A stretch of DNA of 64,000 bases from Candidatus Latescibacterota bacterium (GCA_965217865.1 CBDCJO010000002.1:3552001-3616000); one strand, 5' to 3'; shown: positions 1-31,729, counted from the first letter of the stretch. The notes: generated by a model from the sequence alone, not told the origin. Translations and numbers: made by a program.

Positions 1-441
1 CCGTGGTTGTAGGCATGGACGGCGGCCAGCCGATGCTAGTGTCGTGTCCCGGAAATTCCTTCAATAATTTCTCGGATAGCGGTCTGTTCGTCCTGAGCGG
101 AGCGAAGGATCTCTATGTCCCGAACTATCAGACAGTTGGTGCGATCTTCGCTCGCTGGCTCTCGATCAAAATGACAGCCACCGCTACGTTTTTGGAGACT
201 TTCTTTTGTAAGGAATTACTGGGACACGACACTAGTTCACGACGAGTTCGAAATCACTGACCTGGATCGGCCCGCGGTGCGTGCAATGATTCAATGCGTC
301 GACGCATCAATACGAGACAACGGTCAAGAGCGACGGAATATCATTCTTGCTGCACTTGCCGAGTTAAGTGCTCAGTATCTGAATTCTGGCACCGAGACGA
401 AATCGGACACGCCTACGAGACGGAACCGGACGATCTCATGA
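1..441 (+). pseudogene. 3' end of an SspC/BrxC-like ATPase gene, interrupted by a MITE
   Basis: Removing 40-231 plus one CTAG restores the frame VVGMDGGQPMLVHDEFEITDLDRPAVRAMIQCVDASIRDNGQERRNIILAALAELSAQYL...RNRTIS*. Its TGA (439-441) overlaps the ATG of the PAPS reductase gene (ATGA). The sspC identity is inferred from position and the IILAALAEL tail. Confidence 0.55.
40..231. mobile_element. 192-bp MITE with terminal inverted repeats and CTAG target duplication
   Basis: Left end CTAG|TGTCGTGTCCCGGAAATTCCTT; right end AAGGAATTACTGGGACACGACA|CTAG. The 22-bp IRs have 2 mismatches and there is no transposase ORF. Confidence 0.9.
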
Positions 442-1280
442 GCCAGACGAATAAGACAAGACACGTCTTAGGTCTGTCGGGTGGTCGGGACAGCGCGGCA
501 TTGGCCGTATACATGCGGCAGAACCATCCGGAACTTGATATTGACTACTTCTTTACAGATACCGGCAAGGAACTACCGGAGGTCTACGAGTTCCTTGTCA
601 AGCTCGAAGGATTCCTGGGCAAGCCCATCGTGCGGCTGAATCCCGACCGGAACTTTGACTTCTGGCTGAAGCAGTACAACAACTTTCTCCCGTCGCCACA
701 GACACGCTGGTGCACGCGGCAGCTCAAACTTCGGCCTTTCGAGCAGTGGATCAGGCCGATGCTTGGGAACGGAAACAAAGTCTACAGCTACGTCGCCATA
801 CGCGCGGACGAGGAATACCGCGAAGGATACGCTTCAAAGTACGAAACCCTCGTGGTGAAGCTTCCGTTCAAGGATGCCGGCATCGACAAAGCGGGCGTCT
901 TGGAACTTCTCGAAGGGTCCAGACTGGGTCTGCCGAGATATTACGAGTGGCGCACTCGTAGTGGCTGCACATTCTGTTTCTTCCAGCAGGAAATCGAGCG
1001 GGTGCGGCTAATGGAGCAGCATCCAGACGCCTTTGAGGAAGCTAAGGTTTACGAAAAACTCGCCGTTGATGGGGGCTCTCCTTTCACCTGGAGTCAGGGC
1101 GAATCGCTGGACGACCTTTCCAAACCAGTCAGAGTGGAACAGATCCGACAAGACCACCAACGCCGCTTAGAGCGAATGCAAGCCAAGCACCTACCTAACC
1201 CTCTCCGGCCTGATATGGAGCCCATCGATGTTGACGACCTTTACAGTAAAGCCAAGGTCTGTCTTGGATGTCACAAATAA
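438..1280 (+). CDS. sspD: PAPS-reductase-family protein, SspD/BrxP type (DNA phosphorothioation)
   Basis: PP-loop RHVLGLSGGRDS, RWCTRQLK, RSGCTFCFFQ and C-terminal CLGCH Fe-S-type cysteines. Start placed at ATG 438, overlapping the upstream stop. Confidence 0.7.
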   Translation: MSQTNKTRHVLGLSGGRDSAALAVYMRQNHPELDIDYFFTDTGKELPEVYEFLVKLEGFLGKPIVRLNPDRNFDFWLKQYNNFLPSPQTRWCTRQLKLRPFEQWIRPMLGNGNKVYSYVAIRADEEYREGYASKYETLVVKLPFKDAGIDKAGVLELLEGSRLGLPRYYEWRTRSGCTFCFFQQEIERVRLMEQHPDAFEEAKVYEKLAVDGGSPFTWSQGESLDDLSKPVRVEQIRQDHQRRLERMQAKHLPNPLRPDMEPIDVDDLYSKAKVCLGCHK

Positions 1281-1375: not shown

Positions 1376-2572
1376 TCATTGTTTTTGTTCGACCAACTTG
1401 AATGCGTAAATTTGACCGTGTCGGTCAATAGCCAACCTTACCCTTGATGATGACGACTTTGACTCTTCCCACAATCGCTTCTTAACTCCCTCGACCTCCC
1501 AAATCGGCTCATCAATTCCCCCAGAATTCAGGAACTGTGATACACATAGCGACGAAGCGGTTTCGAAAATTGGGAAATAGCCAACGGATGTTTTCAGTCC
1601 GGGAGCAACCGTCGCCAACTTTTTCTCAATGGCCTCCCATTCAATACATTTCGTGACTGGGCGATCCTCATCATCGCGACAGAAGAAGTAATTATGTAAT
1701 AGGACCTCTCCGCTTTCATTCGAATCGCAAACAGACCGAAATTTACGGCCCGCAGAGGTCAGGCTGTATCCCGTGAGGCCATGCCGCTCCCTTTTTTGGA
1801 GGATTCCGGCATCGACCAATAGCTCAAGTCGAGGAACCAAGAACCATGACCACGGTTGTCCTAGGTTCAGCTTCTCACGAACATTGCGCTCAGTGATCTT
1901 CACCAGCTCATTAAGCCGGGTTCGTATCTTGGCGTTCTCAGGGTGTCCGGAGCGAATCTGCCGCGCGGACAAAACATGCTTCCAGCTTTTCAGCAGAAAT
2001 CCGACGCGATTCTCGGCGGTTATCTCAAAGCTTGGATTGTCGGGAAGCTGCCTAAGAAATGCCCAGAGCCAGTCGCAGTCAATATCCAGTAACCAGAGAC
2101 CCAGATAAAGAGCGCCCACATTACCAAGCTGAAATGGGTCATCCGCGTTCCAATCGGTGGATAAACTTAGACGCCCCCTTGTCAACAGGAGATTCTGATC
2201 TTTCTTGACGAGTTTCAGTGTGTGCGCGAGTGATAGCGCGTCATCAAAATAGTCCTGGGTCAGGGCACCTACAGAGGACTGCAAACTCGAATCTGCCAAC
2301 AGCAGGTCTTGGCGTTCTGCCTTGATGGATTTGCCTTTTTCTAACGCTTTTCGAAGCGGCGTGTATCTCGGTGAGCCCGGCTTATGGTACAGGTACTCCT
2401 TGAAATGTCCTAAGTTGTCTTCTGGTACGACGCGCTTCTCGGTAAGGAATGTAGACACTCCCTTGCAAATGTCCTCTGAAAAGGCGCTCCGACCCTGATT
2501 CGTGTGCGATGATGCCAGGAGTGCCGTCCCATATCGCATCATGTAAAGGCGGAATGTGAGGGCTACTCTCAA
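1376..2572 (-). CDS. 398-aa hypothetical protein, possible winged-helix DNA-binding segment
   Basis: Long ORF starting 4 bp after the HerA stop with RBS GAGGGG. The segment PRLELLVDAGIL...YSLTSAG resembles a wHTH wing. Confidence 0.75.
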   Translation of the reverse strand: MRVALTFRLYMMRYGTALLASSHTNQGRSAFSEDICKGVSTFLTEKRVVPEDNLGHFKEYLYHKPGSPRYTPLRKALEKGKSIKAERQDLLLADSSLQSSVGALTQDYFDDALSLAHTLKLVKKDQNLLLTRGRLSLSTDWNADDPFQLGNVGALYLGLWLLDIDCDWLWAFLRQLPDNPSFEITAENRVGFLLKSWKHVLSARQIRSGHPENAKIRTRLNELVKITERNVREKLNLGQPWSWFLVPRLELLVDAGILQKRERHGLTGYSLTSAGRKFRSVCDSNESGEVLLHNYFFCRDDEDRPVTKCIEWEAIEKKLATVAPGLKTSVGYFPIFETASSLCVSQFLNSGGIDEPIWEVEGVKKRLWEESKSSSSRVRLAIDRHGQIYAFKLVEQKQ

Positions 2573-2576
2573 TGAT

Positions 2577-3971
2577 CTACCCCTCTATCCCGCCGTGAGC
2601 TGTCACTCTCGGTCGGATTTCCATAATGAACGATCGTGTTGCATCGCCGTGGCTGATATAGGCCTGACCCTGAACGAGTTCTCTGAGTAAGTCGTGAAGG
2701 GAGAGCACCTGCGTTCTGCTCGAGATCTTGTCGGGAGATCGTCCTTTGGCGCTACGTATCACTGCATCAATATCAGATTGGACCGTTAGTCGGTGAGCAA
2801 CTACACAATCCACCTGCGACAAGAGTTCCGGATGGATTGCACTGGGTTGTTGTGAAGTAATCATGAGCGACAATCCGTGATTCCTCCCTTCCTTCACATA
2901 CTGAATCAATATGGACGTGCACGGATTTGCCTTGGAAGGCGGAGCGTATCCTTGTGCTTCGTCAATGCAAAGCAGTGTTCGCGGCGGAGAAGACTCAATC
3001 GTTTTTAGCGCTTCGGCGCGTTCACTCTCGGAGATACTGCTGTCCAAGCGAAGGGTCTTGTTCGCTTCTGACGCAGCAGATCGCAAATTGAACAACTGCC
3101 GAACGAGAATCGCTGCTATCAGACTTCGCATCGGGGGCGCTAAGTGCCCCAAGAGGAGAATTGTAACCTCTCCCGCCCTGACCATCGAAGACACCGGCGT
3201 TGGGGTGGATGAAAACAATTCATCTCGGGCAAGAGTTTGAAGACGGCTACGAAGCGCCCTGACCGTTGTGCGTTCGAAACTACCAGCTGTATTTGTCTCG
3301 TCAGAGAGATATTCGATTAGTTCCGAAAGGCCAGCTTCTTCCTTTCCTGCACGAGTTACCGATTTGTAGGTGTACCCAGAGTTCTTTGCGGCATCGTATG
3401 CGGCCAATAAGAGATGCCCAGTCGGATCTTTGAAGAGATCGATCTCGAATATATGGGAATAATCTTCCGGACGAATTAGAGAGGTGTCTAATGCGAAGGG
3501 CTCGTACCTTGACGTATAGAAACCTTGGCGATGCCCATCGGGGTAGTAAGTTCTAATTGAGATGTCCGCTTCCCTTAACCCAAAACTCACAATTTTTGCA
3601 GAAAGTATCTTTCGCAACGAATTGTCCGGGATCTTTGACACTGAAACTGCCGCGTACTGGTATATGTTGAGGGTATCAAGCAGCAGCACAGCGCGGTCAT
3701 TTACGTTAAGGCCGATATTCGCCTCTGCGTCATTTGTGCCCAAGGCTTCTATGATGGTTCCGAGCGTGTATGATTTTCCAGACCCGCGCTGTCCAAAGAT
3801 GCCTGTTACGACTTCTCGCGCGAATCCCAAAATGACCTTCGGCCGCGAACCTTGCTCGGTCAACCTTCCGAGATTGACGTGAGTGATCTTCTCTATGCCC
3901 GCACGGTCGAAACCGAGACAGATTGTTCCGTCGTCATCTTGCAGCCCGGGTGAAACCTTGTAGCGAAGCAT
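2577..3971 (-). CDS. HerA/FtsK-superfamily (DUF87-like) ATPase
   Basis: Walker A GQRGSGKS, Walker B LLCIDEAQ, EGRNHGLSLMITSQQPS signature, and RBS GGAGGG. Confidence 0.9.
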   Translation of the reverse strand: MLRYKVSPGLQDDDGTICLGFDRAGIEKITHVNLGRLTEQGSRPKVILGFAREVVTGIFGQRGSGKSYTLGTIIEALGTNDAEANIGLNVNDRAVLLLDTLNIYQYAAVSVSKIPDNSLRKILSAKIVSFGLREADISIRTYYPDGHRQGFYTSRYEPFALDTSLIRPEDYSHIFEIDLFKDPTGHLLLAAYDAAKNSGYTYKSVTRAGKEEAGLSELIEYLSDETNTAGSFERTTVRALRSRLQTLARDELFSSTPTPVSSMVRAGEVTILLLGHLAPPMRSLIAAILVRQLFNLRSAASEANKTLRLDSSISESERAEALKTIESSPPRTLLCIDEAQGYAPPSKANPCTSILIQYVKEGRNHGLSLMITSQQPSAIHPELLSQVDCVVAHRLTVQSDIDAVIRSAKGRSPDKISSRTQVLSLHDLLRELVQGQAYISHGDATRSFIMEIRPRVTAHGGIEG

Positions 3972-3994
3972 TTAACCCTCCCAGCAATCGCCCC

Positions 3995-5152
3995 TCATAT
4001 TCCTTCGGTGAAAATCGCACGCGCTGGTTCCAGGTCGTCTGTATCTATGACGTAGGAGTCCCGACGCGCAGCATGAACCGCTCCTTCGTTGAGGGCAGAA
4101 ATGAAGTTTCTGGGTAGGCTCGCGGTTGGCGCGCTGGTAGCCATCTCCACGAACCCATTCATTGCTTCGTCAGTCAACGGGTAATAGTCAAGTCCGCTTG
4201 GTATCTGCCCTAGTCCTTCCTTTTCCTTCTTCTTGTCATCGTCGATAACAAGCGCAAAAAGGTCTTTTAAGAATTGTCGCACGTCGTCGTCATGAGCCAA
4301 ATACCCAAGATGGTGAATATTTGCTTTGTTTAGACGAGTCTTAATATCCTCCCGAAACACGAAGTCTGGGATTTCCTCCTCCTGCATTGCATAAATGGAT
4401 ACGATGAAACCGATGACACTATTGTCATCGTCCGCGAGTCGTCGGAAAGCATCGGCAGTCTTGGTTGCGGATATTGGTCAAACCTTCCATCTCGTCCAGG
4501 AGAAATAGGTAGTAAACTCCCTTATTCACGAAAAGCCGCATGATACCAACTAGGACACGATACATTTCAGATACGGTGTCCATGTTCTTTGTGAGGTTGT
4601 ACGAGGTGAGTTCGGCTGCGGTTAGCGATCCGCCGCATAGCCATCTCCACAATGTGATCGGTTCTCCTGCATATCCCAGCGCCCGAATCGCTCGCGCTAT
4701 GTTGGCGTCGTCAAAGTCATTTCTCAGTTTGCCCTCAAGATTGGGCCCCGCATGATTCGCCAGGTATTCCTGCACGATTTCCTTAATCTTCTCCAGGGTA
4801 AGCGCCTCCATCATCTGCGCATGGAGGTAGTTATAGTTCGTCTTTTCCTTGAACTCGGCATCTATGGAGCAGCATTTGACCTTATAGCAGATATCCTCCG
4901 CCTCCGGACTTTCCTGAAGCTTGTACTTTATATTGAACAGTGTATGCGTCTTCCCGACACCATACTGTCCATAGAGATATTTTTTCGGCTGATTTCCCAT
5001 CATATAGCGCTCGCGGATATCTTCGACGATCTCTTCATTTATTTTTTTTTCCCGAAGTACGCTGCGCGATCTTCCTTATTAAGGCGGAAATTTATAGTGA
5101 AGTTGCTTCTGTTACATTTTAGACAGAATCTTTGGTTTAGTGGAGCGATCAT
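3995..5152 (-). pseudogene. P-loop (AAA-like) ATPase broken by two frameshifts
   Basis: GGAGG RBS then ATG 5152 (MIAPLNQRF...AYFGKKK). Frame shifts at an A9 run (5042-5050) into INEEIVEDIRERYMMGNQPKKYLYGQYGVGKT (Walker A) and LFLLDEME (Walker B). A second shift near 4453 leads into DAFRRLADDDNSVIGFIVSIYAMQEEE...EGI*. Confidence 0.8.
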
Positions 5153-5163
5153 TTCCTTGCCTC

Positions 5164-5546
5164 CTATGCTCTGGCTGTGTGTCGTGTTACTCGAAGCTCG
5201 ATTGCGAGTTGTTCGAGCTTGTCTACCAACACCTCTCCTTCACCACGTGCCTCAATAACAAGTCCGAGTTCGTATGAGCGGTTTGACCATTCATACATGT
5301 TCGCCGATCCAAGCAAGGCATAGCGCCGTTCTCTTGTTGTTGCGACATAGAATTTTGCGTGAAGCAAAGGCATGTAGAATATTGAAGCCGTTGGTAGCTC
5401 CTTAGCGTCTCTGACGAATTCCTCGTGTGGACTTCCAGGCTCAGGTTCACGAGTGATGACAACGAGATTAGCTCTTTGGAACTGGAGTTTTTGCAGGAGC
5501 TTCTTAGTATTGTATCTATTCTGAGATAACAAGAGAAAAGCAGATA
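5164..5546 (-). pseudogene. PLD-family nuclease, N-terminus removed by the IS3 element
   Basis: LHAKFY...ALLGSANM...YELG is a single HxK(x)nGSxN motif. The ORF-track start codon lies inside the IS inverted repeat. Confidence 0.85.
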
Positions 5547-5562
5547 AAGGTCCAAGCAAGAT

Positions 5563-6594
5563 TCAGGCAGCCTTGTGGATGGTCTGGGATGTTCTTTGCC
5601 GATTGATTTCTATGCGGCGCTGCCGAGCCTCCTCCTTTCGACCTTGTCGGTGGTGAAGAATCTTTTGATGCTGGCCTTTATGCCTCTGAAGAGGCGTGAC
5701 ATACTGTATTGCCCCGTGATAGCGTTCGGCGTTGTAGCTGTGAATGAAGGAAGCAATCAGGCTTTCCAGTTGATGGAATGTGAAGATGTCCTGGAAGCGC
5801 AGCCAGTCGTATTTGAATGTCCGGAAAAAGGCTTCGATCCAGGCGTTGTCCGTGGGTGTTTGATATCGGGCAAACAGCTGCGAGATGCCCAGGTCCTTGA
5901 AGAATTGGGCCATCGATTTGGCCTTCATCTGAGATCCGTGATCTGAGAGGGCTGTCAAGCTTATGGGCCCAGTGTCCAGGTCCAGCAGTCCTTCGTTGGC
6001 AAGGGCTTGATCCCAGGCCTGTTTGACCTGCTCCACGGTCGCGTTGAAGGAGAGCTTCCATCCTACGATCTTCCTGGAATACACGTCGAGAATGGCGGTA
6101 AAATACAGGAACAAACCGAAAAATGGGATGTAGGTCAGGTCCCAGCTCCAGACCTGATTAGGACCTTCAGGTTTGACCTGGGGCTTGCTCTGCTTGACCG
6201 GCGTCCTCACCTGTTTCCTGCGTGCCAGACGTTCTTTCCTGGCCTGTCGGTAGAAGCTGGAGGCCGAGGCCTGCACTACCCCCTTCTCTGAGGCTACCAC
6301 CGCCAGCTGATGGGGAGGCAGATCGGCATAGGTCTCATCCCTTAAGAGGGCCGAGATTTGCTCTTTCTCCTCCCTCAGCAATCCGTGTGGGGCCTCATCA
6401 GGGGCGGGCCCGGGCTTCCCATCCAAAAGCGGGTCCGACACCCCATCCAGCTTCTCTTCTCGATCTCGCCGGCTCCAGGCACAATACCGCTGGAGGGGAA
6501 GCTGTAGGATCTCGCAAGAACGGGTGAGTTTCACCCCTTTCTCCTTGGCCCGATGGACCATTAAGAGGATCTCGCGTTTGACCTCAGCTTGCAC
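5563..6594 (-). CDS. IS3-family transposase OrfB (DDE integrase core)
   Basis: NQVWSWDLTY, ILDVYSRKIVGW, SDHGSQM, DNAWIEAFFRTFK motifs. Confidence 0.95.
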   Translation of the reverse strand: MQAEVKREILLMVHRAKEKGVKLTRSCEILQLPLQRYCAWSRRDREEKLDGVSDPLLDGKPGPAPDEAPHGLLREEKEQISALLRDETYADLPPHQLAVVASEKGVVQASASSFYRQARKERLARRKQVRTPVKQSKPQVKPEGPNQVWSWDLTYIPFFGLFLYFTAILDVYSRKIVGWKLSFNATVEQVKQAWDQALANEGLLDLDTGPISLTALSDHGSQMKAKSMAQFFKDLGISQLFARYQTPTDNAWIEAFFRTFKYDWLRFQDIFTFHQLESLIASFIHSYNAERYHGAIQYVTPLQRHKGQHQKILHHRQGRKEEARQRRIEINRQRTSQTIHKAA

Positions 6595-6617
6595 CCGGTG
6601 GCCCTTGATCGGGCCTG

Positions 6618-6953
6618 TCAGATCCCATTCACACTTTTTTTTAGCAGGGAAAGTTCCACAGATTGCTCAATGATCGTTTGCTCCAGGCGTGCCCGCTCTT
6701 TGCGCAGCTGCTCCACCTCCTCAGCCGATACCATCGGCTTGCGGCTCCGGCGACCCTTGAACTCCTTGAGGGCCCCGGACTTGACCGACTCACGAATACG
6801 CTTTAGATCCGAGGAATGAATGCCCCATTTCCGCAGCACCTGTGCAATGGGAACATCTCCCCGGCTGGCTTCAAGGAAAATCTCATACTTCTGTTCCGGG
6901 GACAAGCTCCTGCGCTTCTTGACCGGGTCACTGTTTGAGGACAGTTGCTCCAT
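6618..6953 (-). CDS. IS3-family OrfA (HTH plus coiled coil)
   Basis: Ends LLKKS at the A8G run (6634-6642). A -1 shift there reads KKCEWDLTGPIKGHRVQAEVK into OrfB. Confidence 0.85.
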   Translation of the reverse strand: MEQLSSNSDPVKKRRSLSPEQKYEIFLEASRGDVPIAQVLRKWGIHSSDLKRIRESVKSGALKEFKGRRSRKPMVSAEEVEQLRKERARLEQTIIEQSVELSLLKKSVNGI

Positions 6954-7039
6954 CTTTACTCCTCCTGTGAGGTCAGGGATATCCCAAAATATGTATCCCT
7001 TCTCAACCCTACAGGCAACCAGGATCTTGCTTCGACCTT

Positions 7040-7503
7040 GCCCCCGTTTTTTCGGGCGATCTCAGACAAAAGATAGTGCTCTGTGCGCTTGGGGTTCTCG
7101 TAAGACCAGAGTATCGACGACGAGGACTCAGCCAAAAGATTTTACTCGAAATGCGCAACCTGTCAGAGACATATGGATTGCAGGGTGTCCTTGCCCCTGT
7201 GAGGCCAAATCGAAAACACGAGTGTTCAGAGGAGTCCATCGAGTCCTATGCTGATCGGCGGGATGAGCTAGGGCGCCTGTGGGATCCATGGCTTCGAGTC
7301 CATGAAGAGCTGGGTGGCGAGAGGCTGGGTATTACGCTGAAAACAGTTTCCGTCATCGGGTCAATCAAGGATTGGGAAAGCTGGACTGGTATGCAGTTCC
7401 CGGTGGCAGGATCCTATAGCATTCCGGATGGGCTGGTTCCGATCACGATAGAAATCAAGGAACGTACTATGAGCCCAATATCTGGTACTTTCATCAGATA
7501 TAA
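7040..7503 (+). pseudogene. GNAT-family acetyltransferase remnant
   Basis: VRPEYRRRGLS acetyl-CoA motif, APVRP and DPWLRVH. The N-terminus is cut at the IS3 end. The expected C-terminus TYYEPNIWYFHQI* is in another frame from about 7462. Confidence 0.75.
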
Positions 7504-7721
7504 TCTTCCTACGGTAGATTGGCAACCGGCGGAAACAATATATGACATGAGATGTGAAAATCCAGAATCTATTCGGCATCTCTCCAGAATAATCGAAGAC
7601 ATATCGCATCTTCCCTGATCAATTATTAGACAGAGCGACTCGAAGGCAAGATGAAAAATGACAGGAGATCGATGGTTTCTTTGAAGGACTCATCAACAGA
7701 TACATAGAGGCCATTCCAAAG

Positions 7722-8738
7722 GTGGAACTACATGTCCATCTCGAAGGTGCTGTCCAACCTTCTTCACTGCTCAAGTTGGCACGTCGCAACGACGTGGATC
7801 TGCCTGTGTCCACCATTGAGGAAGCTCGTGACTGGTTCGCATTCAGGAACTTCGGAGACTTCAGTGAGATCTACAATGCGATCACGAAGTGCTTAAGAAA
7901 GTCAGAAGACTTCGAATTCATAGTCCATGAACTGGGATCCGAATTTGCACGCCAGCACGTCATGTACGCCGAGGTAACGTTCTCGCCATCGGCGCAGAAG
8001 TGGCAAGGCAACGTAGATCAAGACACCTATCTGGAGGGATTGTCGCGGGGTCGCAAACGCGTTATGGAGGATTTCGGTGTCAGATTGAACTGGATCTTTG
8101 ATCTGCTTAGAGATTCATCGAGATGGCAGCCGATGGCCGAATACACTACGCGCGTCGCCATCGAGTCGGCGTCAGACGGTGTCGTTGCTCTCGGTCTCGG
8201 CGGATGGGAGAAGTACGGTCCTCCAGAGGAATTTGAACGGTGGTTTGACTTGGCACTCAGTTCCGGACTACGAAGCAGTCCGCACGCAGGAGAGTTTGCT
8301 GGACCTGAAAACATCTGGGGGGCTATCCGAGCACTAAAGGCAGAGCGCATCAGTCATGGAGTGAAGGCTATCCAGGATCCTGCGCTAATGGATTACCTCA
8401 TCGACAACGAGATACCCCTGGATCTCTGCCCGACAAGTAATCGGAGACTAGGCGTAGTAACCAGTTACTCCGATCATCCGTTGAGAACATTCTACAACGC
8501 TGGTATCATCATCACAGTAAACACGGACGATCCGCCGATGTTCAACACAACGCTTACGGACGAATTGAAGCTCCTGGTTGATCCATTTGGTCTCGATATC
8601 GATGACATCGATACGGTTCTGATGAATGCAATCAACTCCAGTTTTCTGTCTGCCTCGGACAAAGACGAACTAAGGACAAAGTTTCGCTGCGCAAGTGAGT
8701 CTATCAAGAGGGATCTAAGGCTATCGCGCCAGTTGTGA
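7722..8738 (+). CDS. add: Adenosine/adenine deaminase
   Basis: PKVELHVHLEG, PHAGE, ERISHG, CPTSN and NTDDP motifs. The true start is probably slightly upstream, with a possible N-terminal frameshift. Confidence 0.9.
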   Translation: MELHVHLEGAVQPSSLLKLARRNDVDLPVSTIEEARDWFAFRNFGDFSEIYNAITKCLRKSEDFEFIVHELGSEFARQHVMYAEVTFSPSAQKWQGNVDQDTYLEGLSRGRKRVMEDFGVRLNWIFDLLRDSSRWQPMAEYTTRVAIESASDGVVALGLGGWEKYGPPEEFERWFDLALSSGLRSSPHAGEFAGPENIWGAIRALKAERISHGVKAIQDPALMDYLIDNEIPLDLCPTSNRRLGVVTSYSDHPLRTFYNAGIIITVNTDDPPMFNTTLTDELKLLVDPFGLDIDDIDTVLMNAINSSFLSASDKDELRTKFRCASESIKRDLRLSRQL

Positions 8739-8850
8739 GTCGCCATTTCCTGCTGCGCGCCTTACGGCGCTGCCTTCGGCACTCCACGTGCGCGAGGTCG
8801 TGAAGTGCGAAATCAATGTGCAATGGACAAACACTCAACCTCTGGCTAGC

Positions 8851-9928
8851 ATGAGCAATCTTTTCACCGGTAACGCAATATTCTCACTGCGTGGTATTGT
8901 TGTATTGGCGTGTATTGTGGTGTCATCTGTCTCTGCATCTGCCGGATCCGATAGGATGCGCCGAGGCGTCTGTTGGGTCGCGGCAACCGAACCGCTCGAG
9001 TTGGATGACTTCAAACCACTATTACGAAATCATGTCAACTGGATCTCCCAAATGACGTTCGCCTGGCATCGCGATGCTCATTCACCTGAAATCATACTTA
9101 ACGTGGATTCAAATTGGTGGGGAGAAAGTGATATCGGAATCGTGCAAACGGCAAAGCTGGCCAGGCAGGTGGGCATCAAGACCCTACTGAAACCCCATGT
9201 TTGGGGCCGCCATTGGAGCGGTGACATCGAAATGGCCAGCGAAGCAGAATGGCGTCAATGGTTCGACAATTACCAACGTTTCATTTTGCACTACGCTCAA
9301 TTGGCTGATAAGGCGGATATTGAAGCATTGTGCATTGGTTCGGAACTGCAGGGAACGACGACGCGGGAGAGTGACTGGAGGGAGATCATCGCTGCTGTCA
9401 GAAAAGTATACAAAGGCTCATTGGTTCTCGCGGCAAATTGGGACAGCGAGTTTGAGCAAATCAGGTTTTGGGATGCCCTCGATTTTATCGGTATTCAGGC
9501 ATACTTTCCGGTAGCCGAGCAAGATAACCCATCGATTCCACAGCTTCTTAAGGGGTGGGCTAGTCATCTGGAACGCATACAGACTGTACACCGAGCATAT
9601 GGAAAACCAATACTGTTCACAGAAGTTGGATATCGAAGCGAGTCCAATGCAGCGATCCGCCCGTGGTATTGGGAGATGCCAAAACAGGAATCGACGGCAA
9701 ATACAAGCGGGTTCACAAAAGAGGGCTTACAGACGCAGGCCAACTGCTACGAGGCATTCTTCCAAGCCGTTTCACATGCCGAATGGCTTTCGGGTATATA
9801 TATCTGGAAGTGGTATCCACCCGACCATTGAATCAAACCGTCGATATCCCAAGCCGTTTACTCCACAGGGTAAACCTGCAGAGGAAGTTTTGAGACAATG
9901 GTATGGAACGGCCGAAATGTCAGACTGA
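8851..9928 (+). CDS. Secreted GH113-like (TIM-barrel) glycoside hydrolase with a frameshift near 9825
   Basis: Signal-like N-terminus, LLKPHVW, CIGSEL, AANWD, GIQAYFP, FTEVGY. The C-terminal FTPQGKPAEEVLRQWY is in a different frame. Confidence 0.8.
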
Positions 9929-9999
9929 TCGTCCACCGCACATAACAAGAGCATTTGTTCTGCGCGCTGAAATATACAATAATTCGAGGTTGATTAATC

Positions 10000-10407
10000 A
10001 TGATTACGGAGATCAATAAAACCATCGTCCGTCGTTACATTGACGAACTCAACCAACGCAATCTCTCTGTAATTGACGAACTGGTCGCCGAAGAACATCG
10101 TGATTTGGTGGTCCAGAGTTATACACGTAACGTGACCGCTTTTCCGGACTACGTTGTGGAAGTCGAAGAGCTGATTGCTGAAGGCGATAAAGTGGTCCTG
10201 GTATGGAACCATAAAGGAACCCATCGCGGCGATCATGATGGCATTCCCCCAACAGAGAAAGTGATTGTTGGGAGAGCCATCAGTATTTATCGGATTGTTG
10301 ATGGCAAGATTTCCAGTTCAGACGGCGTTTGGGATCAATCCGCTATTTGGCAACAATTGGGTTTGATCCCAGACACCCAGACTATCCTGAGTGCCGTCCA
10401 AAGGTAA
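10000..10407 (+). CDS. SnoaL-like ester cyclase (NTF2 fold)
   Basis: NKTIVRRYIDE, AFPDY, LIAEGDKV, GTHRG, GIPPT, DGKI motifs. Confidence 0.9.
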   Translation: MITEINKTIVRRYIDELNQRNLSVIDELVAEEHRDLVVQSYTRNVTAFPDYVVEVEELIAEGDKVVLVWNHKGTHRGDHDGIPPTEKVIVGRAISIYRIVDGKISSSDGVWDQSAIWQQLGLIPDTQTILSAVQR

Positions 10408-10548
10408 TGGACCAGATTCATTTCGGAGATTAGAGTGGTTCCACGATGTTAACTGCCATTCACGTCTCCTGAAGCGATTAGATTCTGAGAATGGTCCTGC
10501 TTACCCTATCGCCCAACCCTTTCATCCCTCCATTCACCCATCCCCAAC

Positions 10549-10664
10549 TGTTCGATATCGGACACCACTGTATCATAACCGGATACTTAACGCCCCATCA
10601 AAAATTTCAACTTAAACTAACTTATTGTAAACATTACAGAAATAATTATGGCACGCTCGTTGCA
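10549..10664 (+). promoter_or_regulatory. Sigma54 promoter with upstream palindromic activator site
   Basis: TGGCAC-N5-TTGCA at 10649-10664 and near-palindrome TGTTCGATATCGGACA at 10549-10564, separated by an AT-rich spacer. Confidence 0.75.
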
Positions 10665-10721
10665 TCTTTCTTGCTCTTGTTAGACCTCCATGCCCTGAAC
10701 CTTCAATTTGCGGGGGTTGCC

Positions 10722-13109
10722 ATGATCAAAAACTACATTATTGTCGCCATCCGCAACTTGCTGCGACAAAAACTGTACACTTTTATTCATATTTTTGGCC
10801 TGGCACTGGGCATTGCTTGTTGTCTTCTAATGGCGCTGTTCGTGAAGCACGAGTGGTCGTTCGATCAGTTTCATATAAACAAAAATCTTCTGTTTCGGGT
10901 TGTGACCCAAGAGGTCAAGCCCAACGGTGAAATAAAACAAAGCACTCTGTTTCCTCATACGATTGTAGAAACACTAAAAGACGTCTTGCCGCGGGCAAGT
11001 GCGTATATGCGCACTGAGGGTAGCTTCGATTATGGCGATCAGGAATATGGAGCATTGATTGGCCTTGTAAGTCCTGGCTTCTTGACCCTTTTCACGTTTC
11101 CACTTTTGACAGGTGACTCAGCGACGGCCTTGGATCGACCTAATGCAATGGTAATCAGTGAAACCCTTGCGCTAAAGATTTTCGGCGATGATCCATCCGA
11201 TTATAGCCACGTGTTGGGGCAGACGCTCACATCAGGAGGATTGGCATTCGAAATCACAGGCGTTGCTGTTGACGTTCCTGACGTATCCAGTCTGAGATTC
11301 GATGTGTTAACATCGGCTGACCATCACAGGCATTTTGGAGGGAATTATTCAGACGGCGGGTATGCTTCGATCTATGTACAGCTCGCAGGAAGAGAGATAC
11401 CAGGGGGAATGGATGCATCGCTCAAATCCTTTGCACATACGCACTTGAGCACGCGAATTCAGAATTTGATAGAATGGAATGTCATTCCAGACGAACAAGC
11501 TTTTACGCTCACGCTACAACCCCTGATGGATGTGTATTGGAATGCACAGATCCCGAATTCTTATGAAGCATCGGGTAACTTGGATGCTGTCTATATTCTA
11601 TGGGGACTTGCAGGGCTTGTATTGCTGATTGCGTGCAGCAATTTTACAACCCTATCGATCGCGAGCTCGGGGGACCGGGCACTCGAGGTCGGCCTACGGA
11701 AAGTATTGGGTGGAGGCCGTCATCAATTGATGACACAATTCTGGAGTGAGGCGCTGTTGTTGAGTCTTTTGGGCGTTTTGCTGGGTGTTGCCCTGGCCGA
11801 GATGTTTTTGCCCATCTTTAATGGGCTGATCCAGCGCGATCTCAATATTACGTATTTTGGATATGGATCTATCTTCCTTATTTTACTGATCATCGTGATC
11901 GCGGTCGGCCTGCTGGCCGGTAGTTATCCGGCTGCTGTACTGTCGCGCTTTCAGCCGGTGTCTGCGCTGAAAGGTGGGAAACTTATTGGAGGCCGCAGCA
12001 GGCTGACGCGCACCATCGTGATATTGCAATATACCGCGTCGATTGCGCTGATGATCTGTACGGGCGTGATGTTTGAGCAACAACACTATGTGCGCAACAA
12101 AAATCTAGGTTATGATCGGGACCAAGTCGTTGTTGTGTACGCAAAGAACAAGAAGCTTGCAGACCGTTTCAAGCATGAAATATTAAAAGATCCCCGTGTT
12201 TTAAATGCTACGATCGCTGACCGCGCTTTTACGAGCGGCTGGAACAAGACCGGCTTAAAACTGCCCGATGGAACACGTTTCTCGGTACGCGTGCTCGGGG
12301 TTGATCCCGACTATCTGTCCACGCTGAGAATTCCCCTGCTTGCAGGCCGCAACTTTTCCGAGGCACATCCATCAGATCGTGAACAAGCTGTGTTGATCAA
12401 CGAAAGCCTGGCACAAAAACTTAAAATGGATAATCCCATAGGCCGCTTGCTGCCGGGGTTTGACTGGAACGGTTTGAACCCGATCGTTATCGGGATTATA
12501 GACGATTTTCACATCGACTCGTTGCACAAAAGTATTCAGCCGCTGGTTTTGCAGATGAAACAGTTTAACAGCGGCCCGTATCTGCTCATCCGCATTCGCC
12601 CTGAAGATGTACTCGGTACGCTAGCGTTTTTAAAAACCATCTGGCAGGATGAGGACCCCAACGGGTTATTATCCCATTGGTTTCTGGATACCGCACTTGA
12701 TCGGCAATATCGCGATGAACAACGCTGGGAGCGGGTGCTCATTTATTCGGCGCTGTTTGCGATTACGATTTCTTGCCTCGGTTTGTTGGGGCTGGCGTCT
12801 CTGGCTGTGGCACGACGAACAAAGGAAGTCGGGATACGGAAGGTGCTTGGCGCATCGGTGGGACATCTGGTAGGATTACTGTCGAGGGATTTCGTAAAGC
12901 TGTTGGTTGCGGCGAATGTGATCGCGTGGCCAGTAGCATATTGGGCAATGGACAAATGGCTGACGAATTTTGCCTACCGCATCGAGCTTAAGGTTGACGT
13001 CTTTATATTAGCTGGCATGTTAGCGATTTGCATCGCTCTGTTGGCGGTGGTTCTTCAGACACTCAAGGCTGCGCGGAGAAATCCTATAGATGTCCTTCGA
13101 TATGAATGA
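10722..13109 (+). CDS. ABC transporter permease (duplicated MacB/FtsX type)
   Basis: MIKNYIIVAIRNL start, two EVG(L/I)RKVLG motifs, C-terminal NPIDVLRYE. Confidence 0.92.
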   Translation: MIKNYIIVAIRNLLRQKLYTFIHIFGLALGIACCLLMALFVKHEWSFDQFHINKNLLFRVVTQEVKPNGEIKQSTLFPHTIVETLKDVLPRASAYMRTEGSFDYGDQEYGALIGLVSPGFLTLFTFPLLTGDSATALDRPNAMVISETLALKIFGDDPSDYSHVLGQTLTSGGLAFEITGVAVDVPDVSSLRFDVLTSADHHRHFGGNYSDGGYASIYVQLAGREIPGGMDASLKSFAHTHLSTRIQNLIEWNVIPDEQAFTLTLQPLMDVYWNAQIPNSYEASGNLDAVYILWGLAGLVLLIACSNFTTLSIASSGDRALEVGLRKVLGGGRHQLMTQFWSEALLLSLLGVLLGVALAEMFLPIFNGLIQRDLNITYFGYGSIFLILLIIVIAVGLLAGSYPAAVLSRFQPVSALKGGKLIGGRSRLTRTIVILQYTASIALMICTGVMFEQQHYVRNKNLGYDRDQVVVVYAKNKKLADRFKHEILKDPRVLNATIADRAFTSGWNKTGLKLPDGTRFSVRVLGVDPDYLSTLRIPLLAGRNFSEAHPSDREQAVLINESLAQKLKMDNPIGRLLPGFDWNGLNPIVIGIIDDFHIDSLHKSIQPLVLQMKQFNSGPYLLIRIRPEDVLGTLAFLKTIWQDEDPNGLLSHWFLDTALDRQYRDEQRWERVLIYSALFAITISCLGLLGLASLAVARRTKEVGIRKVLGASVGHLVGLLSRDFVKLLVAANVIAWPVAYWAMDKWLTNFAYRIELKVDVFILAGMLAICIALLAVVLQTLKAARRNPIDVLRYE

Positions 13110-13152
13110 AAGACCAGACAAGGTGATGCCGCGTACCTGATTGAGGTGTTAA

Positions 13153-15570
13153 TCACTCATACCGCAGCGCTTCCACAGGATTGACCATCGCGGCGTTGAT
13201 GGTTCGAAAACTGACGGTTATCAAGGCGATTACCACCGTTAGAAGCCCACCTAAAACAAAGGTCCACAAACTGATATTTATCCGATAGTTGAAGTCCTGC
13301 AACCACTGATCCATTGCTAAATACCCTACAGGCCAGGCGACCAAATTGGCCATAATTGCCAGCTTCACGATATCTTTTGAAAGCAGTATAACCACGTTTG
13401 AAACCGTTGCTCCCAGCACTTTCCTGATGCCGATCTCTTTCGTGCGTTGCTGTGCCGTATAAGAGATCAGGCCGAATAAGCCGAGACATGCGACCATGAT
13501 GGCAAGGATGGAGAAGATACTGAATATGCGGCTTAGCCGTACCTCAGAACGGTATTGCCGTTCATAATCTTCATCCAAAAAGAAATAATCGAATGGCCGA
13601 TCGGGAACAAGTTGCTGCCAAATATTCTCTAACGCTGCAAGAGTCCCGGGTATATCTTCCGCGTTGATCTTGATTGCAAGATATGAAAACCAATGTGGAT
13701 TTATATGCATTAGAAAAGGCTCTACGCCGTGTTGCAAAGAGGCATGATGAAAATCTTTCACAACCCCGATGAGATGCCCTTCTTTAAAATCGCTGCCCAT
13801 ATTGGCTTGTCTGCCAATCGCTGACTCGGGTTTTCCCCATCCCAAATATTTGACGGCTGTTTCGTTCAGAATGAATGCTTCTGTTTCGTCAGTGGGAATC
13901 TCCCTTGAAAAATCCCTGCCTGCAACCAAACTTAATCCAAATGTCTCTATGTATTCATGGTCGTTGGTTTGATAAAGTAACCTTTTCGGTTCTTTGCCGG
14001 ATGGTCCTTCTATTTCGAGTTTGATGTCATCATATAAGCGCCCCGGGATGTAGGAACAAGCCGAAGCATTAAGTACATTTGCTTGTTTCAGTAATTCTGT
14101 TTTTATGGGTTCTAATCGCGCCTTGATAATTCTATTTCCTTTGAACTTGACGATAACCAACTCCTCCTTATCGAACCCAAGTTGTTGATTTCTCATATAC
14201 TCAAGTTGGTCGTAGACAACGGCAGTACTGATGATCAACACAATCGAGATGACAAACTGAAAAATGACCAATCCTTGTCGTATCCATGCTCCTTTCGACC
14301 GGGGATGTGAGGAAGCTTTCAACACCTCAACAGGTTTAAAGCGTGAAAGTGCAAACGCCGGATAACTTCCGGAAATTAAACCCACAAAGAGTGTGATAAC
14401 GATCAGACCTATAGAAATAGATCTATCGTGGAAGAGGTTTAAGTTCAGTTTTTTCTCAGCCAATTCATTAAAAGTGGGCAATGCAAGTTCGATCAGAAAA
14501 ACGGCTAAAAGCAAAGCAACAACAGTGATAAAAACTGCTTCCCCTAAAAACTGATAAATGAGCTGTCTGCGAAATGCGCCTAAAACTTTTCGAGTTCCCA
14601 CCTCTTTAACACGGTTTGCAGATCTGGCTGTCGCCAAATTCATGAAGTTAACGCACGCAATCAATATGATGAGAACGGCAATGGTAAAAAACATATAAAC
14701 ACTAACCACACTGCTGAGGGGACCCACTTCATAGGACAGATTAGAATGCAGGTAGATATCGGTTAAAGGTTGGAGAAAATGCTTAAATTTATGTCCCGTC
14801 TGGCTTTCCCACTCCCTGTTGTATTTCCCGGTTACGTCATAAATCTCTTGTCTTATGGTAGATTCAGATGCAGATTCGCCCAGCAATATATAAGTATACC
14901 CCACGAGATAAAGCCATTGATCTTGCTTTACCTTCGGGAACAGGCTTGGGAGGGTCTCAAGGGAGATGAGGAAGTCAAAAGAAAAGTGAGAATTAGATGG
15001 GATAGGATAGAGCAGACCCGTGACTTTGAGATGCAATGAGTCTTGTACGGTAAGAAATTCACCGATCGGATTCCTGCTTCCGAAGTACCTGCGAGCAAGG
15101 GGCTCCGTAAGCACAATCGATAAGGGTTCTGCAAGGGCCGTTTCAGGATCTCCTTTGAGGAGCGGAAAGGAAAATATCTTGAAAACCGATCCACCCGCAG
15201 CGTATCCCCCGTCTTCGTAAAACCGAACATTCCCGCGTTCGATATATATCCGGCCATAATCGTCAAGAGACAGAAAGCGAACCGCCTCCTCAATATCCGG
15301 AAATTCATTTAAAAGGGTTGAGGCGAGAAGCCCTGATGTCCGCGGAATATATTGGATGGGTTCATTGTTTGGGAATTGCCACTCGAGGCCAACACGGTAA
15401 ATCCGGTCAGCATTTTCATGATAGCGATCATAACTAAGCTCATCTTTCACAAACAGGAGAATGAGGACACTGGACGCTAGACCAACCGCCAATCCGAAAA
15501 TATTGATAAAAGAATACACCTTTTGTCTGAGTAAATTTCTGACAGCTATAGTCAGGAAGTTCTGGAACAT
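13153..15570 (-). CDS. ABC transporter permease (duplicated MacB/FtsX type)
   Basis: MFQNFLTIAVRNL, NFMNLATARS...EVGTRKVLGA, C-terminal NPVEALRYE. Confidence 0.92.
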   Translation of the reverse strand: MFQNFLTIAVRNLLRQKVYSFINIFGLAVGLASSVLILLFVKDELSYDRYHENADRIYRVGLEWQFPNNEPIQYIPRTSGLLASTLLNEFPDIEEAVRFLSLDDYGRIYIERGNVRFYEDGGYAAGGSVFKIFSFPLLKGDPETALAEPLSIVLTEPLARRYFGSRNPIGEFLTVQDSLHLKVTGLLYPIPSNSHFSFDFLISLETLPSLFPKVKQDQWLYLVGYTYILLGESASESTIRQEIYDVTGKYNREWESQTGHKFKHFLQPLTDIYLHSNLSYEVGPLSSVVSVYMFFTIAVLIILIACVNFMNLATARSANRVKEVGTRKVLGAFRRQLIYQFLGEAVFITVVALLLAVFLIELALPTFNELAEKKLNLNLFHDRSISIGLIVITLFVGLISGSYPAFALSRFKPVEVLKASSHPRSKGAWIRQGLVIFQFVISIVLIISTAVVYDQLEYMRNQQLGFDKEELVIVKFKGNRIIKARLEPIKTELLKQANVLNASACSYIPGRLYDDIKLEIEGPSGKEPKRLLYQTNDHEYIETFGLSLVAGRDFSREIPTDETEAFILNETAVKYLGWGKPESAIGRQANMGSDFKEGHLIGVVKDFHHASLQHGVEPFLMHINPHWFSYLAIKINAEDIPGTLAALENIWQQLVPDRPFDYFFLDEDYERQYRSEVRLSRIFSIFSILAIMVACLGLFGLISYTAQQRTKEIGIRKVLGATVSNVVILLSKDIVKLAIMANLVAWPVGYLAMDQWLQDFNYRINISLWTFVLGGLLTVVIALITVSFRTINAAMVNPVEALRYE

Positions 15571-15612
15571 ATCACCTCCCGGAACCAGGAACACTTAATC
15601 CATAAAGCTCCT

Positions 15613-31720: not shown

Positions 31721-31729
31721 GTCCGTTCG

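What the first reader, a model, noticed from the sequence alone, without database searches (positions are those of the whole stretch)
1376..5546. Candidate undescribed defence module: PLD nuclease + P-loop ATPase + HerA ATPase + wHTH-like protein facing an Ssp phosphorothioation operon
Seen: four tightly spaced co-oriented genes (gaps of 11, 23 and 4 bp; the three with intact 5' ends have an RBS) ending about 95 bp from the stop of an sspD-like gene. Established: phosphorothioation modules pair with interchangeable effector modules (SspE or SspFGH for Ssp; DndFGH or PbeABCD for Dnd), and PLD nucleases and HerA motors are common antiphage parts. This four-gene order does not match a system I recognise. 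Inference: it is a new effector, either phosphorothioate-sensing or stand-alone, in which two ATPases power a small PLD nuclease and the 398-aa protein supplies DNA or modification recognition. Upstream genes may have been lost at the IS3 junction.
Basis: partly seen in the sequence, partly recalled or inferred. Interest (0 to 1): 0.85.

Follow-up and report, generated by a model that had tools for sequence, protein, structure and literature searches.

The report
Broken Ssp-linked HerA-PLD restriction cassette
This stretch holds a broken copy of a five-gene nuclease-and-motor cassette that lies beside the DNA-sulfur-marking genes sspBCD in every related locus examined and matches no named partner of that system; it is likely a third kind of restriction arm for sulfur-mark-based defence against phages.

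Summary
Four co-oriented minus-strand genes (PLD nuclease, P-loop ATPase, HerA, a 398-aa protein) have gaps of 11, 23 and 4 bp and end 95 bp from an sspD gene.

The intact unit in relatives has five genes: ATPase-1, PLD, ATPase-2, HerA and the 398-aa protein ("Y"). It lies next to sspBCD in 9 of 9 related loci that have flanking DNA. The full gene order is kept in 7 of 7 loci with enough upstream DNA. It pairs with at least five very different SspBCD lineages.

The window's copy is dead:
- ATPase-1 is gone.
- The PLD gene lost about 48 codons at an IS3 junction.
- ATPase-2 has two frameshifts, which contigs of four public runs also carry.
- sspB and sspC are themselves truncated.

No cassette protein matches SspF, SspG or SspH. 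PADLOC holds those models, and a positive control scored. A confident fold of Y resembles the FokI/SspB/BrxA DNA-recognition module.

One distant relative of the core (PLD-ATPase-HerA-Y) sits beside a C5 cytosine methylase, in a genome assembly with no SspD match.

Best reading: an undescribed phosphorothioate-coupled restriction module, analogous to DndFGH and SspFGH. Function is untested. This scan found the same cassette before on other DNA (e1-5345736).

The parts
1..260 (+). 3' end of a C-terminal sspC fragment (ORF runs from 897 bases upstream of the window to 260). Second, partial sspC copy.
   Evidence: tblastn of an intact SspC (L002) matches only residues 803-1087 here. ORF translation.
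294..1280 (+). sspD (PAPS-reductase family), second copy in this locus. The homology starts near 438. Convergent with the cassette.
   Evidence: PADLOC SspD E 2.7e-130, residues 56-328. tblastn 438-1274.
1376..2572 (-). Y: intact 398-aa protein of no named family. Predicted FokI/SspB/BrxA-like multi-wHTH DNA-recognition protein with an extra C-terminal wHTH.
2577..3971 (-). Intact 464-aa HerA/FtsK-class ATPase (Walker A GSGKS, Walker B CIDEAQ).
   Evidence: Pfam DUF87 4.8e-10. PADLOC mad8 4.3e-21 and 10 HerA models among the 12 hits. Motifs invariant in 8 loci.
3995..5152 (-). ATPase-2 pseudogene: AAA-type P-loop ATPase (391 aa when intact) with two frame changes, near 5051 and near 4452.
   Evidence: Three tblastn pieces in frames -2, -1, -2 against the intact L002 protein, 76-84% identical. 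Three-frame read. Contigs of 4 runs show the same letters.
5164..5511 (-). 3' two-thirds of the single-HKD PLD nuclease gene (residues 49-163 of 163). The HxK and GSxN motifs are kept. The 5' end was lost at the IS junction.
   Evidence: tblastn 79% identity over residues 49-163 only. Pfam PLDc_2 21.9 bits.
5512..7075 (-). IS3-family insertion sequence (orfA 6618-6953, orfB 5563-6594). It replaces the PLD 5' end and the ATPase-1 gene.
   Evidence: rve 1.3e-20. Matches at 42 places in the genome, most of them full-length and near-identical. Ends mapped by comparing 8 copies; no target duplication at this copy. Contig depth rises about 40-fold at 5511.

Best explanation
The window carries a decayed copy of a conserved five-gene cassette that lies beside sspBCD in all nine related loci with flanking DNA, and this cassette is likely a restriction module that would cut DNA lacking the phosphorothioate mark.

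The decay here: the PLD gene is cut by an IS3 element, one ATPase gene is frameshifted twice, and the first ATPase gene is lost.

Shown:
- The intact unit is ATPase-1, PLD, ATPase-2, HerA, Y, tightly packed or overlapping.
- Its catalytic motifs are conserved.
- It stays next to sspBCD across very different SspBCD lineages and several phyla.
- It is not SspE-, SspFGH- or Pbe-like by sequence.
- Y has a FokI/SspB/BrxA-type DNA-recognition fold.

Inferred mechanism:
1. Y would bind DNA and read the Ssp target motif or its sulfur mark.
2. The two paralogous AAA-type ATPases would act like initiator or loader ATPases that assemble or gate the motor on unmarked DNA.
3. The HerA hexamer would pump that DNA.
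4. The small single-HKD PLD protein, as a dimer, would nick or cut it.

Self DNA would be spared by SspABCD-made phosphorothioates, as shown for SspFGH and DndFGH. In this genome the system is dead: both the writer (sspB, sspC) and the cassette are broken.
For: **Synteny.** Ten loci were fetched through Y homology. One, L011, is only 1,195 bases long.
- 9 of 9 loci with flanks have sspB, sspC and sspD directly beside Y. They are convergent in 7 and co-directional in 2.
- 7 of 7 loci with enough upstream DNA keep the five-gene order.

**Independent pairings.** L001 and L010 share Y at 89% identity, yet their SspB, SspC and SspD are only 34, 28 and 40% identical. At least five SspBCD lineages occur. 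The cassette genes co-vary with each other (Y against HerA, rho 0.97).

**Motifs.** All are conserved in every locus that holds the gene (7 for ATPase-1, 8 for the others):
- Walker A and B in ATPase-1, ATPase-2 and HerA.
- HxK and GSxN in PLD.

**Not a known partner.**
- PADLOC SspF, SspG and SspH models score 2e-236, 9e-203 and 0 on a Pseudanabaena SspFGH control. They score nothing on cassette proteins at E <= 0.1 (window copies) or E <= 0.01 (L002 to L005 copies).
- blastp finds no hit below E 0.03.
- hhalign finds P-loop matches only.

**Precedent (passages read).** SspFGH and DndFGH damage unmarked DNA and are toxic without the mark (PMC8092258). The combination of triple wHTH, nuclease and HerA/FtsK motor is the DndFGH logic (PMC10853773).

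**Horizontal spread.** Y occurs in 1 of 168 genomes of the window's phylum, namely the window's own. Relatives lie in Alpha- and Gammaproteobacteria, Nitrospirales, Rhodothermales and Schlesneria MAGs.
Against: - No experiment exists. All relatives are MAG or metagenome contigs.
- The loci were chosen by homology to Y and are kin, so 9 of 9 overstates independence.
- A distant relative of the core (PLD, ATPase-2-like E 2e-45, HerA E 3e-66, Y-like E 2e-20) lies beside a C5 cytosine methylase and a true BrxD. No ssp gene occurs in those 17 kb, and no SspD match in that genome assembly, whose completeness is not given. The engine therefore does not need Ssp as such.
- Rakesh et al. (PMC10853773, abstract and passages) argue that DndFGH is functionally decoupled from its neighbouring modification genes. 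The same could hold here.
- The Y fold matches have middling Z (under 9). Foldseek gave no hit at E <= 1e-3, and the Y-versus-SspB profile comparison is not significant (E 0.099).
- The ATPase class is weakly supported. PF10923 matched 5 of 7 ATPase-2 and 4 of 7 ATPase-1 proteins at E <= 0.01. hhalign to a true BrxD gave only 10-15% probability. The ATPase-2 model failed (pLDDT 52).
- Weak PLD-family hits to DpdK, DrmC and ZacB exist.
Confidence: 0.55

Rival explanations
1. Stand-alone HerA/FtsK 'capture' defence system. The cassette restricts invading DNA by itself (DNA reader, loader ATPases, pump, nuclease). It sits beside sspBCD only because defence genes cluster and travel together.
For: Rakesh et al. 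describe HerA/FtsK plus Orc/Cdc6-type ATPase plus nuclease plus multi-wHTH operons as independent systems, and argue that DndFGH works alone (PMC10853773, passages). A distant relative of the core lies in a genome assembly with no SspD match.
Against: Immediate adjacency in 9 of 9 loci across at least five SspBCD lineages is tighter than defence-island clustering. In 2 loci the cassette follows sspD on the same strand, with small gaps. The Ssp-free relative carries its own DNA methylase next door, which fits a module that always needs a marking partner.
Confidence: 0.2
2. Phosphorothioate-sensing effector of the SspE kind. The cassette is switched on, not off, by phosphorothioate in host DNA, and then attacks phage DNA.
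For: SspE is stimulated by the mark and is harmless without it (PMC8092258, discussion passages). The linkage to sspBCD fits this reading as well as it fits the best one.
Against: No sequence likeness to SspE-type proteins appeared in PADLOC hits. The domain set (wHTH reader, FtsK/HerA pump, nuclease) mirrors DndFGH and SspFGH, which attack unmarked DNA. The repeated breakage of cassette genes where the writer is damaged (window; L013 has a stop in ATPase-2 and a split sspA) fits a module that is toxic without marks. This last point is weak evidence.
Confidence: 0.12
3. Accessory machinery of the modification pathway or of a mobile element, such as target selection, DNA repair after nicking by SspB, or DNA transfer. 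Not a restriction module.
For: HerA/FtsK pumps and Orc/Cdc6-like ATPases also serve plasmids and transposons (PMC10853773, passages). Y shares a fold class with SspB.
Against: No integrase, relaxase or replication genes are conserved beside the cassette in the loci read. A conserved single-HKD PLD nuclease with intact catalytic motifs is typical of restriction effectors. By Wang et al.'s own count only 431 of 2,678 sspBCD loci carry sspE, sspFGH or both (196, 199 and 36; PMC8092258, section 9 passage). The four phylum samples show the Y superfamily in at most 2 of the 400 other genomes in each. So sspBCD is far commoner than this cassette and cannot depend on it.
Confidence: 0.05

Closest known systems
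SspABCD-SspFGH (Vibrio anguillarum FF-93; Wang et al. 2021, PMC8092258)
   Same: A multi-gene cassette directly beside sspBCD. It contains a Walker-A ATPase and an FtsK/HerA-class ATPase. The SspH C-terminus and the cassette HerA both hit the PADLOC mad8 profile (4e-22 and 4e-21). Likely the same logic: damage DNA that lacks the mark.
   Different: Three large proteins of about 600, 510 and 1,600-1,790 aa (Table S2), against five small ones (about 376, 163, 391, 464 and 398 aa). No sequence homology beyond P-loops. Here the nuclease is a separate PLD protein and the pump a separate HerA.
DndFGH (Dnd phosphorothioation restriction arm; domain analysis by Rakesh, Aravind and Krishnan 2024, PMC10853773)
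   Same: The same parts list at domain level: P-loop NTPase (DndF), triple-wHTH reader of the FokI/SspB type (DndG), and nuclease plus HerA/FtsK pump (DndH).
   Different: The nuclease is PLD, not a REase. The pump and the nuclease are separate small proteins. There are two AAA-type ATPases instead of a P-loop kinase. It is paired with Ssp, not Dnd. No PADLOC Dnd hits were seen for the cassette proteins, but no positive control for DndFGH models was run.
HerA/FtsK plus Orc/Cdc6 'capture' systems (PMC10853773) and BREX-related capture systems (PMC12839542)
   Same: HerA/FtsK pump, AAA+ ATPases of the initiator type, a nuclease, and a fast-evolving multi-wHTH protein related to DndG, SspB, BrxA and the FokI recognition domain.
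   Different: Those papers describe REase or PglZ effectors, and an inactive REase inserted in the Orc/Cdc6 protein. In PMC10853773 the word PLD occurs 0 times in the main text. No Ssp-linked PLD version appears in the passages I read. Their supplementary data were not read.
MADS (mad1-8, Pseudomonas aeruginosa; bioRxiv 10.1101/2023.03.30.534895; PMC13662399)
   Same: A methylation-marked R-M-like system whose MAD8 profile matches the cassette HerA over nearly its whole length (positions 13-308 of 314, E 4e-21). MAD7/MAD8 is described as an ATPase-nuclease module.
   Different: No cassette protein hits mad1 to mad7. MAD6, MAD7 and MAD8 are the mandatory core of MADS (methods passage). The mark is m6A.

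Membership tests
SspFGH | Sequence homology to SspF, SspG and SspH | tested here: not met
   PADLOC holds 6 SspF, 4 SspG and 4 SspH models that scored on the Pseudanabaena control. No hits for window or L002-L005 cassette proteins. blastp: all E > 0.03. hhalign: P-loop only.
SspFGH | Three-gene architecture with a protein of about 1,600-1,790 aa carrying a C-terminal FtsK-like domain | tested here: not met
   Table S2 gene lengths and the L008 annotation, against five genes of 163-464 aa.
SspFGH | Adjacent to sspBCD | tested here: met
   9 of 9 loci with flanks, plus the window.
SspFGH | Toxic without the phosphorothioate mark; protects against phage when the mark is present | not testable with these tools
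   Needs expression in a laboratory host.
SspE | Sequence homology to SspE | tested here: inconclusive
   No hit named SspE among PADLOC results. I ran no positive control showing that the library holds SspE models.
PbeABCD / DndFGH | Sequence homology to Pbe or DndF/G/H proteins | tested here: inconclusive
   PADLOC PbeA models exist (they scored on a neighbouring helicase) and did not score on cassette proteins. No control was run for PbeB-D or DndF-H models.
HerA/FtsK-Orc/Cdc6 capture systems | HerA/FtsK-class ATPase | tested here: met
   DUF87 and PADLOC/NCBIfam HerA hits. PDB HerA chains at E 5e-9 to 4e-3.
HerA/FtsK-Orc/Cdc6 capture systems | Multi-wHTH protein of the DndG/SspB/FokI type | tested here: met
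HerA/FtsK-Orc/Cdc6 capture systems | Orc/Cdc6 AAA+ ATPase with an inserted inactive REase | tested here: inconclusive
   Only weak BrxC_BrxD, AAA_22, Orc1/Cdc6 and DnaA hits. The ATPase-2 model was too poor to read.
HerA/FtsK-Orc/Cdc6 capture systems | Active REase-fold nuclease | tested here: not met
   The only nuclease-like gene is a single-HKD PLD.
MADS | MAD6, MAD7 and MAD8 together (the mandatory core) | tested here: not met
   Only mad8 scores, on HerA. No mad6 or mad7 hits.
BREX | PglZ and BrxC, with full-length BrxD where present | tested here: not met
   Only partial BrxD-profile hits: positions 186-255 of 440 at E 0.0022, and E 1.5e-5 for L002. No PglZ or BrxC beside the cassette; the neighbouring BrxC-like hits belong to SspC.

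The most novel reading that the evidence does not exclude
PLD-ATPase-HerA-Y is a plug-in restriction engine that reads whichever backbone or base mark its neighbour writes. The mark is phosphorothioate when the cassette is docked to SspBCD, and 5-methylcytosine when it is docked to a Dcm-type methylase. The FokI/SspB-like Y family is the adaptor that senses mark status. That would make this a restriction core shared between sulfur-based and methyl-based self-marking.
Probability: 0.3. Interest if true: 0.8.

Novelty: new variant of a known kind. Interest (0 to 1): 0.65.

Why it matters
Only two restriction partners of the Ssp phosphorothioation system have been tested: SspE and SspFGH. By the count in PMC8092258 (section 9 passage), 431 of 2,678 sspBCD loci carry sspE, sspFGH or both, so most have no known partner.

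A third, unrelated partner built from small separable proteins (reader, two loader-like ATPases, pump, PLD nuclease) would have three uses:
- It would explain some of the 'orphan' sspBCD loci.
- It would give a simpler system in which to ask how sulfur marks are read.
- If the same core also works with cytosine methylation, it would show how restriction engines are swapped between marking chemistries.

For this genome the result is more ordinary. The locus is a wreck in a genome that carries about 40 copies of this IS.

Tried and rejected
**Complex prediction.** HerA with Y (complex prediction): score 0.00, no verdict. It counts neither for nor against binding. Earlier tries met a full queue.

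**ATPase-2 structure.** Built from a 7-row alignment: pLDDT 51.8, unusable.

**Unbiased fold search.** pdb_via_wide was busy on all four tries. The FokI-type match therefore rests on a second look at Foldseek's own list.

**Searches of solved-structure sequences.** Nothing significant for Y, ATPase-1, ATPase-2 or PLD.

**Other collections.**
- Viral contigs hold no Y relative. The distant-family alignment A7 was too diverse for that tool.
- Plasmids hold no relative of the distant Y-like protein P0120.
- No RNA holder was listed for the stretch, so expression was not examined.
- Four phylum samples of 401 genomes each gave only 0 to 2 further Y-superfamily hits. The methylase pairing therefore stays at n = 1.

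**Identities considered and rejected.**
- SspFGH, on sizes and sequence.
- MADS: only mad8 matches.
- BREX type 2: only weak BrxD likeness.
- Dpd: only a weak DpdK/PLD likeness.
- Assembly error as the cause of the frameshifts: independent contigs agree.

**Literature.** Full-text searches were: 'SspFGH'; phosphorothioate/HerA/PLD/SspD; MADS/mad8; SspH/SspG/SspF; sspBCD + HerA; SspABCD/phospholipase D/new defense. The listings, and the passages I read in six of the papers found, name no paper that describes this cassette. Subscription journals and the supplements of the two comparative-genomics papers (PMC10853773, PMC12839542) were not seen.


Full report
**What is in the window**

On the minus strand lie, from right to left:
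- an IS3-family element, orfB 5563-6594 and orfA 6618-6953;
- a PLD-type ORF, 5164-5559;
- a P-loop ATPase gene in three pieces, from ATG 5152 to stop 3995;
- a 464-aa HerA gene, 2577-3971;
- a 398-aa ORF, 1376-2572.

The gaps between genes are 11, 23 and 4 bp. The last stop lies 95 bp from the stop of a plus-strand sspD gene at 294-1280 (PADLOC SspD E 2.7e-130). Purine-rich ribosome-binding sites precede the three intact starts.

**The intact unit has five genes**

The 398-aa protein, called Y here, has 111 homologous clusters. All are unnamed or named only 'hypothetical protein', and all come from MAGs and metagenomes. Through its alignment I fetched five loci from genome contigs and five from metagenome contigs.

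tblastn of reference proteins from the Nitrospirales locus L002 gave these results:
- One of the ten loci, L011, is only 1,195 bases long and has no flank.
- In 7 of 7 loci with enough upstream DNA the order is ATPase-1 (about 376 aa), PLD (163 aa), ATPase-2 (391 aa), HerA (464 aa), Y (about 395-402 aa).
- In 9 of 9 loci with any flank, sspB, sspC and sspD lie directly beside Y. They are convergent in seven loci and on the same strand, downstream of sspD, in two.

ATPase-1 and ATPase-2 are distant paralogues (hhalign probability 98.9%, E 3e-17).

The catalytic motifs are conserved in every locus that holds the gene:
- Walker A and B in all three ATPases;
- HxK and GSxN in PLD.

**The window's copy is dead**

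- ATPase-1 is absent from the whole 6.4-Mb genome.
- The PLD gene keeps only residues 49-163. It ends at about 5511, where the IS begins.
- The IS matches 42 places in the genome, most of them full-length and near-identical. This copy has no target-site duplication, so a deletion or a recombination between IS copies probably removed the missing DNA.
- ATPase-2 changes frame near 5051 (an A9 run) and near 4452. At the second site about four codons are also missing.
- Contigs of four public runs from two studies carry exactly these letters across both sites, so this is not an assembly slip. One run may be the source sample.

The Ssp writer is broken as well. Upstream of the window lie:
- an sspB covering only residues 25-182;
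- an sspC covering only residues 678-1131;
- a first sspD copy;
- an intact sspA;
- a second sspC tail (residues 803-1087) followed by the second sspD, which is the copy inside the window.

No intact sspC exists in the genome.

**Is it a known Ssp partner? No**

By Table S2 of Wang et al. (PMC8092258, supplement rows seen), sspF, sspG and sspH are about 1.8, 1.5 and 4.8-5.4 kb long. I took the three genes from a plasmid listed there, Pseudanabaena NZ_AP017562.1.

- PADLOC recognises them strongly: SspF 2e-236, SspG 9e-203, SspH E 0. The library therefore holds these models.
- Those models gave nothing for the cassette proteins of the window or of four relatives.
- blastp found nothing below E 0.03.
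- hhalign found only P-loop matches.
- PbeA models exist in the library and did not score on the cassette.

The only near-full-length hit to a defence profile is HerA against mad8 of MADS (E 4e-21). The same profile also matches the FtsK-like end of SspH (4e-22). No mad6 or mad7 hits occur, and MAD6-8 are the mandatory core of MADS (bioRxiv 10.1101/2023.03.30.534895, methods passage).

Weak partial hits to BrxD, DpdK, DrmC and ZacB reflect shared AAA and PLD folds.

**What Y is**

An AlphaFold2 model from the 21-row alignment is confident: pLDDT 89.4, pTM 0.91.

|---|---|---|
| FokI recognition domain | 8.9 | 196 residues aligned, model residues 4-292 |
| Nt.BspD6I | 8.8 | |
| BrxA | 8.1 | 158 aligned of a 185-residue chain |
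| BpuJI recognition domain | 7.2 | |
| SspB | 6.6 | 209 residues aligned |
| PaqCI | 6.6 | |

Model residues 309-398 form a separate winged helix.

**Linkage to Ssp looks functional**

The cassette genes co-vary tightly. Their SspBCD neighbours do not. L001 and L010 share Y at 89% identity but SspB, SspC and SspD at only 34, 28 and 40%. At least five SspBCD lineages are represented.

The cassette is rare and patchy:
- Y occurs in 1 of 168 genomes of the window's phylum, namely the window's own.
- Its carriers are spread over five distant bacterial lineages.

Adjacency kept through repeated re-pairing argues for dependence on the writer and not for shared descent. The loci were picked through Y and are kin, so the counts overstate independence.

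**A wider family**

A profile search of 1.84 billion representative proteins found 195 proteins at E <= 1e-3 and 93 at E <= 1e-10. Most are a distant, full-length family of 400-430 aa. Its profile hits Y at 1e-47 to 1e-52, and hhalign gives probability 100%.

Four phylum samples of 401 genomes each gave these counts, the centre genome included:

| Phylum of | Genomes with a match |
|---|---|
| G172 | 3 |
| G171 | 1 |
| G169 | 2 |
| G170 | 1 |

One distant locus, L022 in a Planctomycetota genome, reads as follows:
- a sigma-54-type AAA protein;
- PLD;
- an ATPase-2-like protein (E 2e-45);
- HerA (E 3e-66);
- a Y-like protein (E 2e-20);
- an unknown protein;
- a true BrxD (PF10923 8e-50);
- a second BrxD-like protein;
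- a C5 cytosine methylase (PF00145 5e-87).

No ssp gene occurs in these 17 kb, and no SspD match in that genome assembly. The assembly's completeness is not given. The core engine can therefore sit beside a different DNA-marking enzyme. This is one case only. Earlier notes of this scan (e1-5475414, e1-5475411) report that a HerA-PLD cassette of this make-up is usually paired with a methylase. I did not check their sequences.

**Mechanism**

By parts, the cassette mirrors DndFGH and, as far as is known, SspFGH: NTPase(s), a FokI/SspB-type reader, a nuclease and a HerA/FtsK pump. SspFGH damages unmarked DNA and is toxic without the mark (PMC8092258, passages). BrxD-type ATPases have been proposed to act as helicase loaders (PMC12839542, passage).

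I therefore infer, at 0.55 confidence:
1. Y reads the target or its mark.
2. The two ATPases gate or load the motor.
3. HerA translocates the DNA.
4. The PLD dimer cuts unmarked DNA.

None of these steps is shown. The rivals are a stand-alone capture system (0.2), an SspE-like mark-activated effector (0.12), and a non-restriction accessory role (0.05).

**Novelty**

Six full-text searches were run. I read passages of PMC8092258, PMC10853773, PMC12839542, PMC12421847, PMC12914056, PMC13662399 and the MADS preprint. None of the listings or passages names a paper that describes this cassette. In PMC10853773 the word PLD occurs 0 times in the main text. The supplements of the two comparative-genomics papers and subscription journals were not seen.

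I class the finding as a new variant of a known kind: a modification-coupled restriction module. The scan met the same cassette before, in another genome (e1-5345736), with the same reading. My synteny counts, the SspFGH control, the fold and the methylase-linked relative were obtained here independently.

Noticed in passing
upstream of the window and window 1-1280 (G000:C2, window coordinates about -5090 to 1280): The ssp locus is rearranged. It reads sspD, then an sspC C-terminal half, then an sspB N-terminal part (all minus strand), then sspA, a second sspC tail and a second sspD (all plus strand). This is an inverted partial duplication with a deletion of about 2 kb that joins sspB to mid-sspC. 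The genome has no intact sspC.
   Followed up: partly
window 5512-7075: The IS3-family element matches 42 places in the genome, most of them full-length and near-identical. This is an IS expansion. Contig depth in public runs rises about 40-fold at its edge.
   Followed up: yes
L005:12598-17022; L006:10816-15163; L007:10918-15305: A different trio also lies directly beside sspBCD on two Hyphomicrobiales plasmids, and in the Schlesneria locus that also holds the five-gene cassette. The trio is an SF2 helicase (PbeA-like), a GHKL/MORC-type ATPase and a PLD of about 305 aa. In L005 the third gene (317 aa) was not scanned, so PLD is shown only for L006 and L007. Earlier notes e1-3405607 and e1-6635599 describe the same trio.
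   Followed up: partly
L013:937-2109: In this metagenome locus ATPase-2 has an in-frame stop at codon 232, a few codons from the window's second frameshift (after codon 235). The sspA there is split into two frames. This may be chance, or repeated inactivation of the same gene.
   Followed up: no
L024 (G1237:C1:529500-549499), 5285-15955 minus strand: A Nitrospirota genome has sspB-sspC-sspD (SspD and SspC are 92% and 80% identical to L002's). They are followed by a remote Y-like protein (hhalign probability 94%), a 221-aa protein that looks PIN-like by eye, an ATPase-1-like protein (probability 98%) and an 800-aa GHKL ATPase. This may be yet another Ssp-linked effector built around a Y-like reader.
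   Followed up: partly
L008:1089-5954: The FtsK-like C-terminus of a bona fide SspH matches the PADLOC mad8 (MADS) profile at 4e-22. SspH, MAD8 and the cassette HerA therefore seem to share one HerA/FtsK subgroup.
   Followed up: no
window 25205-32698: Two unknown proteins (735 and 354 aa) are followed by a DEAD-helicase fragment that runs into a DDE transposase. An N6/N4 DNA methylase lies at 31730-32698. This may be a second decayed defence locus. Further transposases lie at 16407-17120 and 19708-21210.
   Followed up: no
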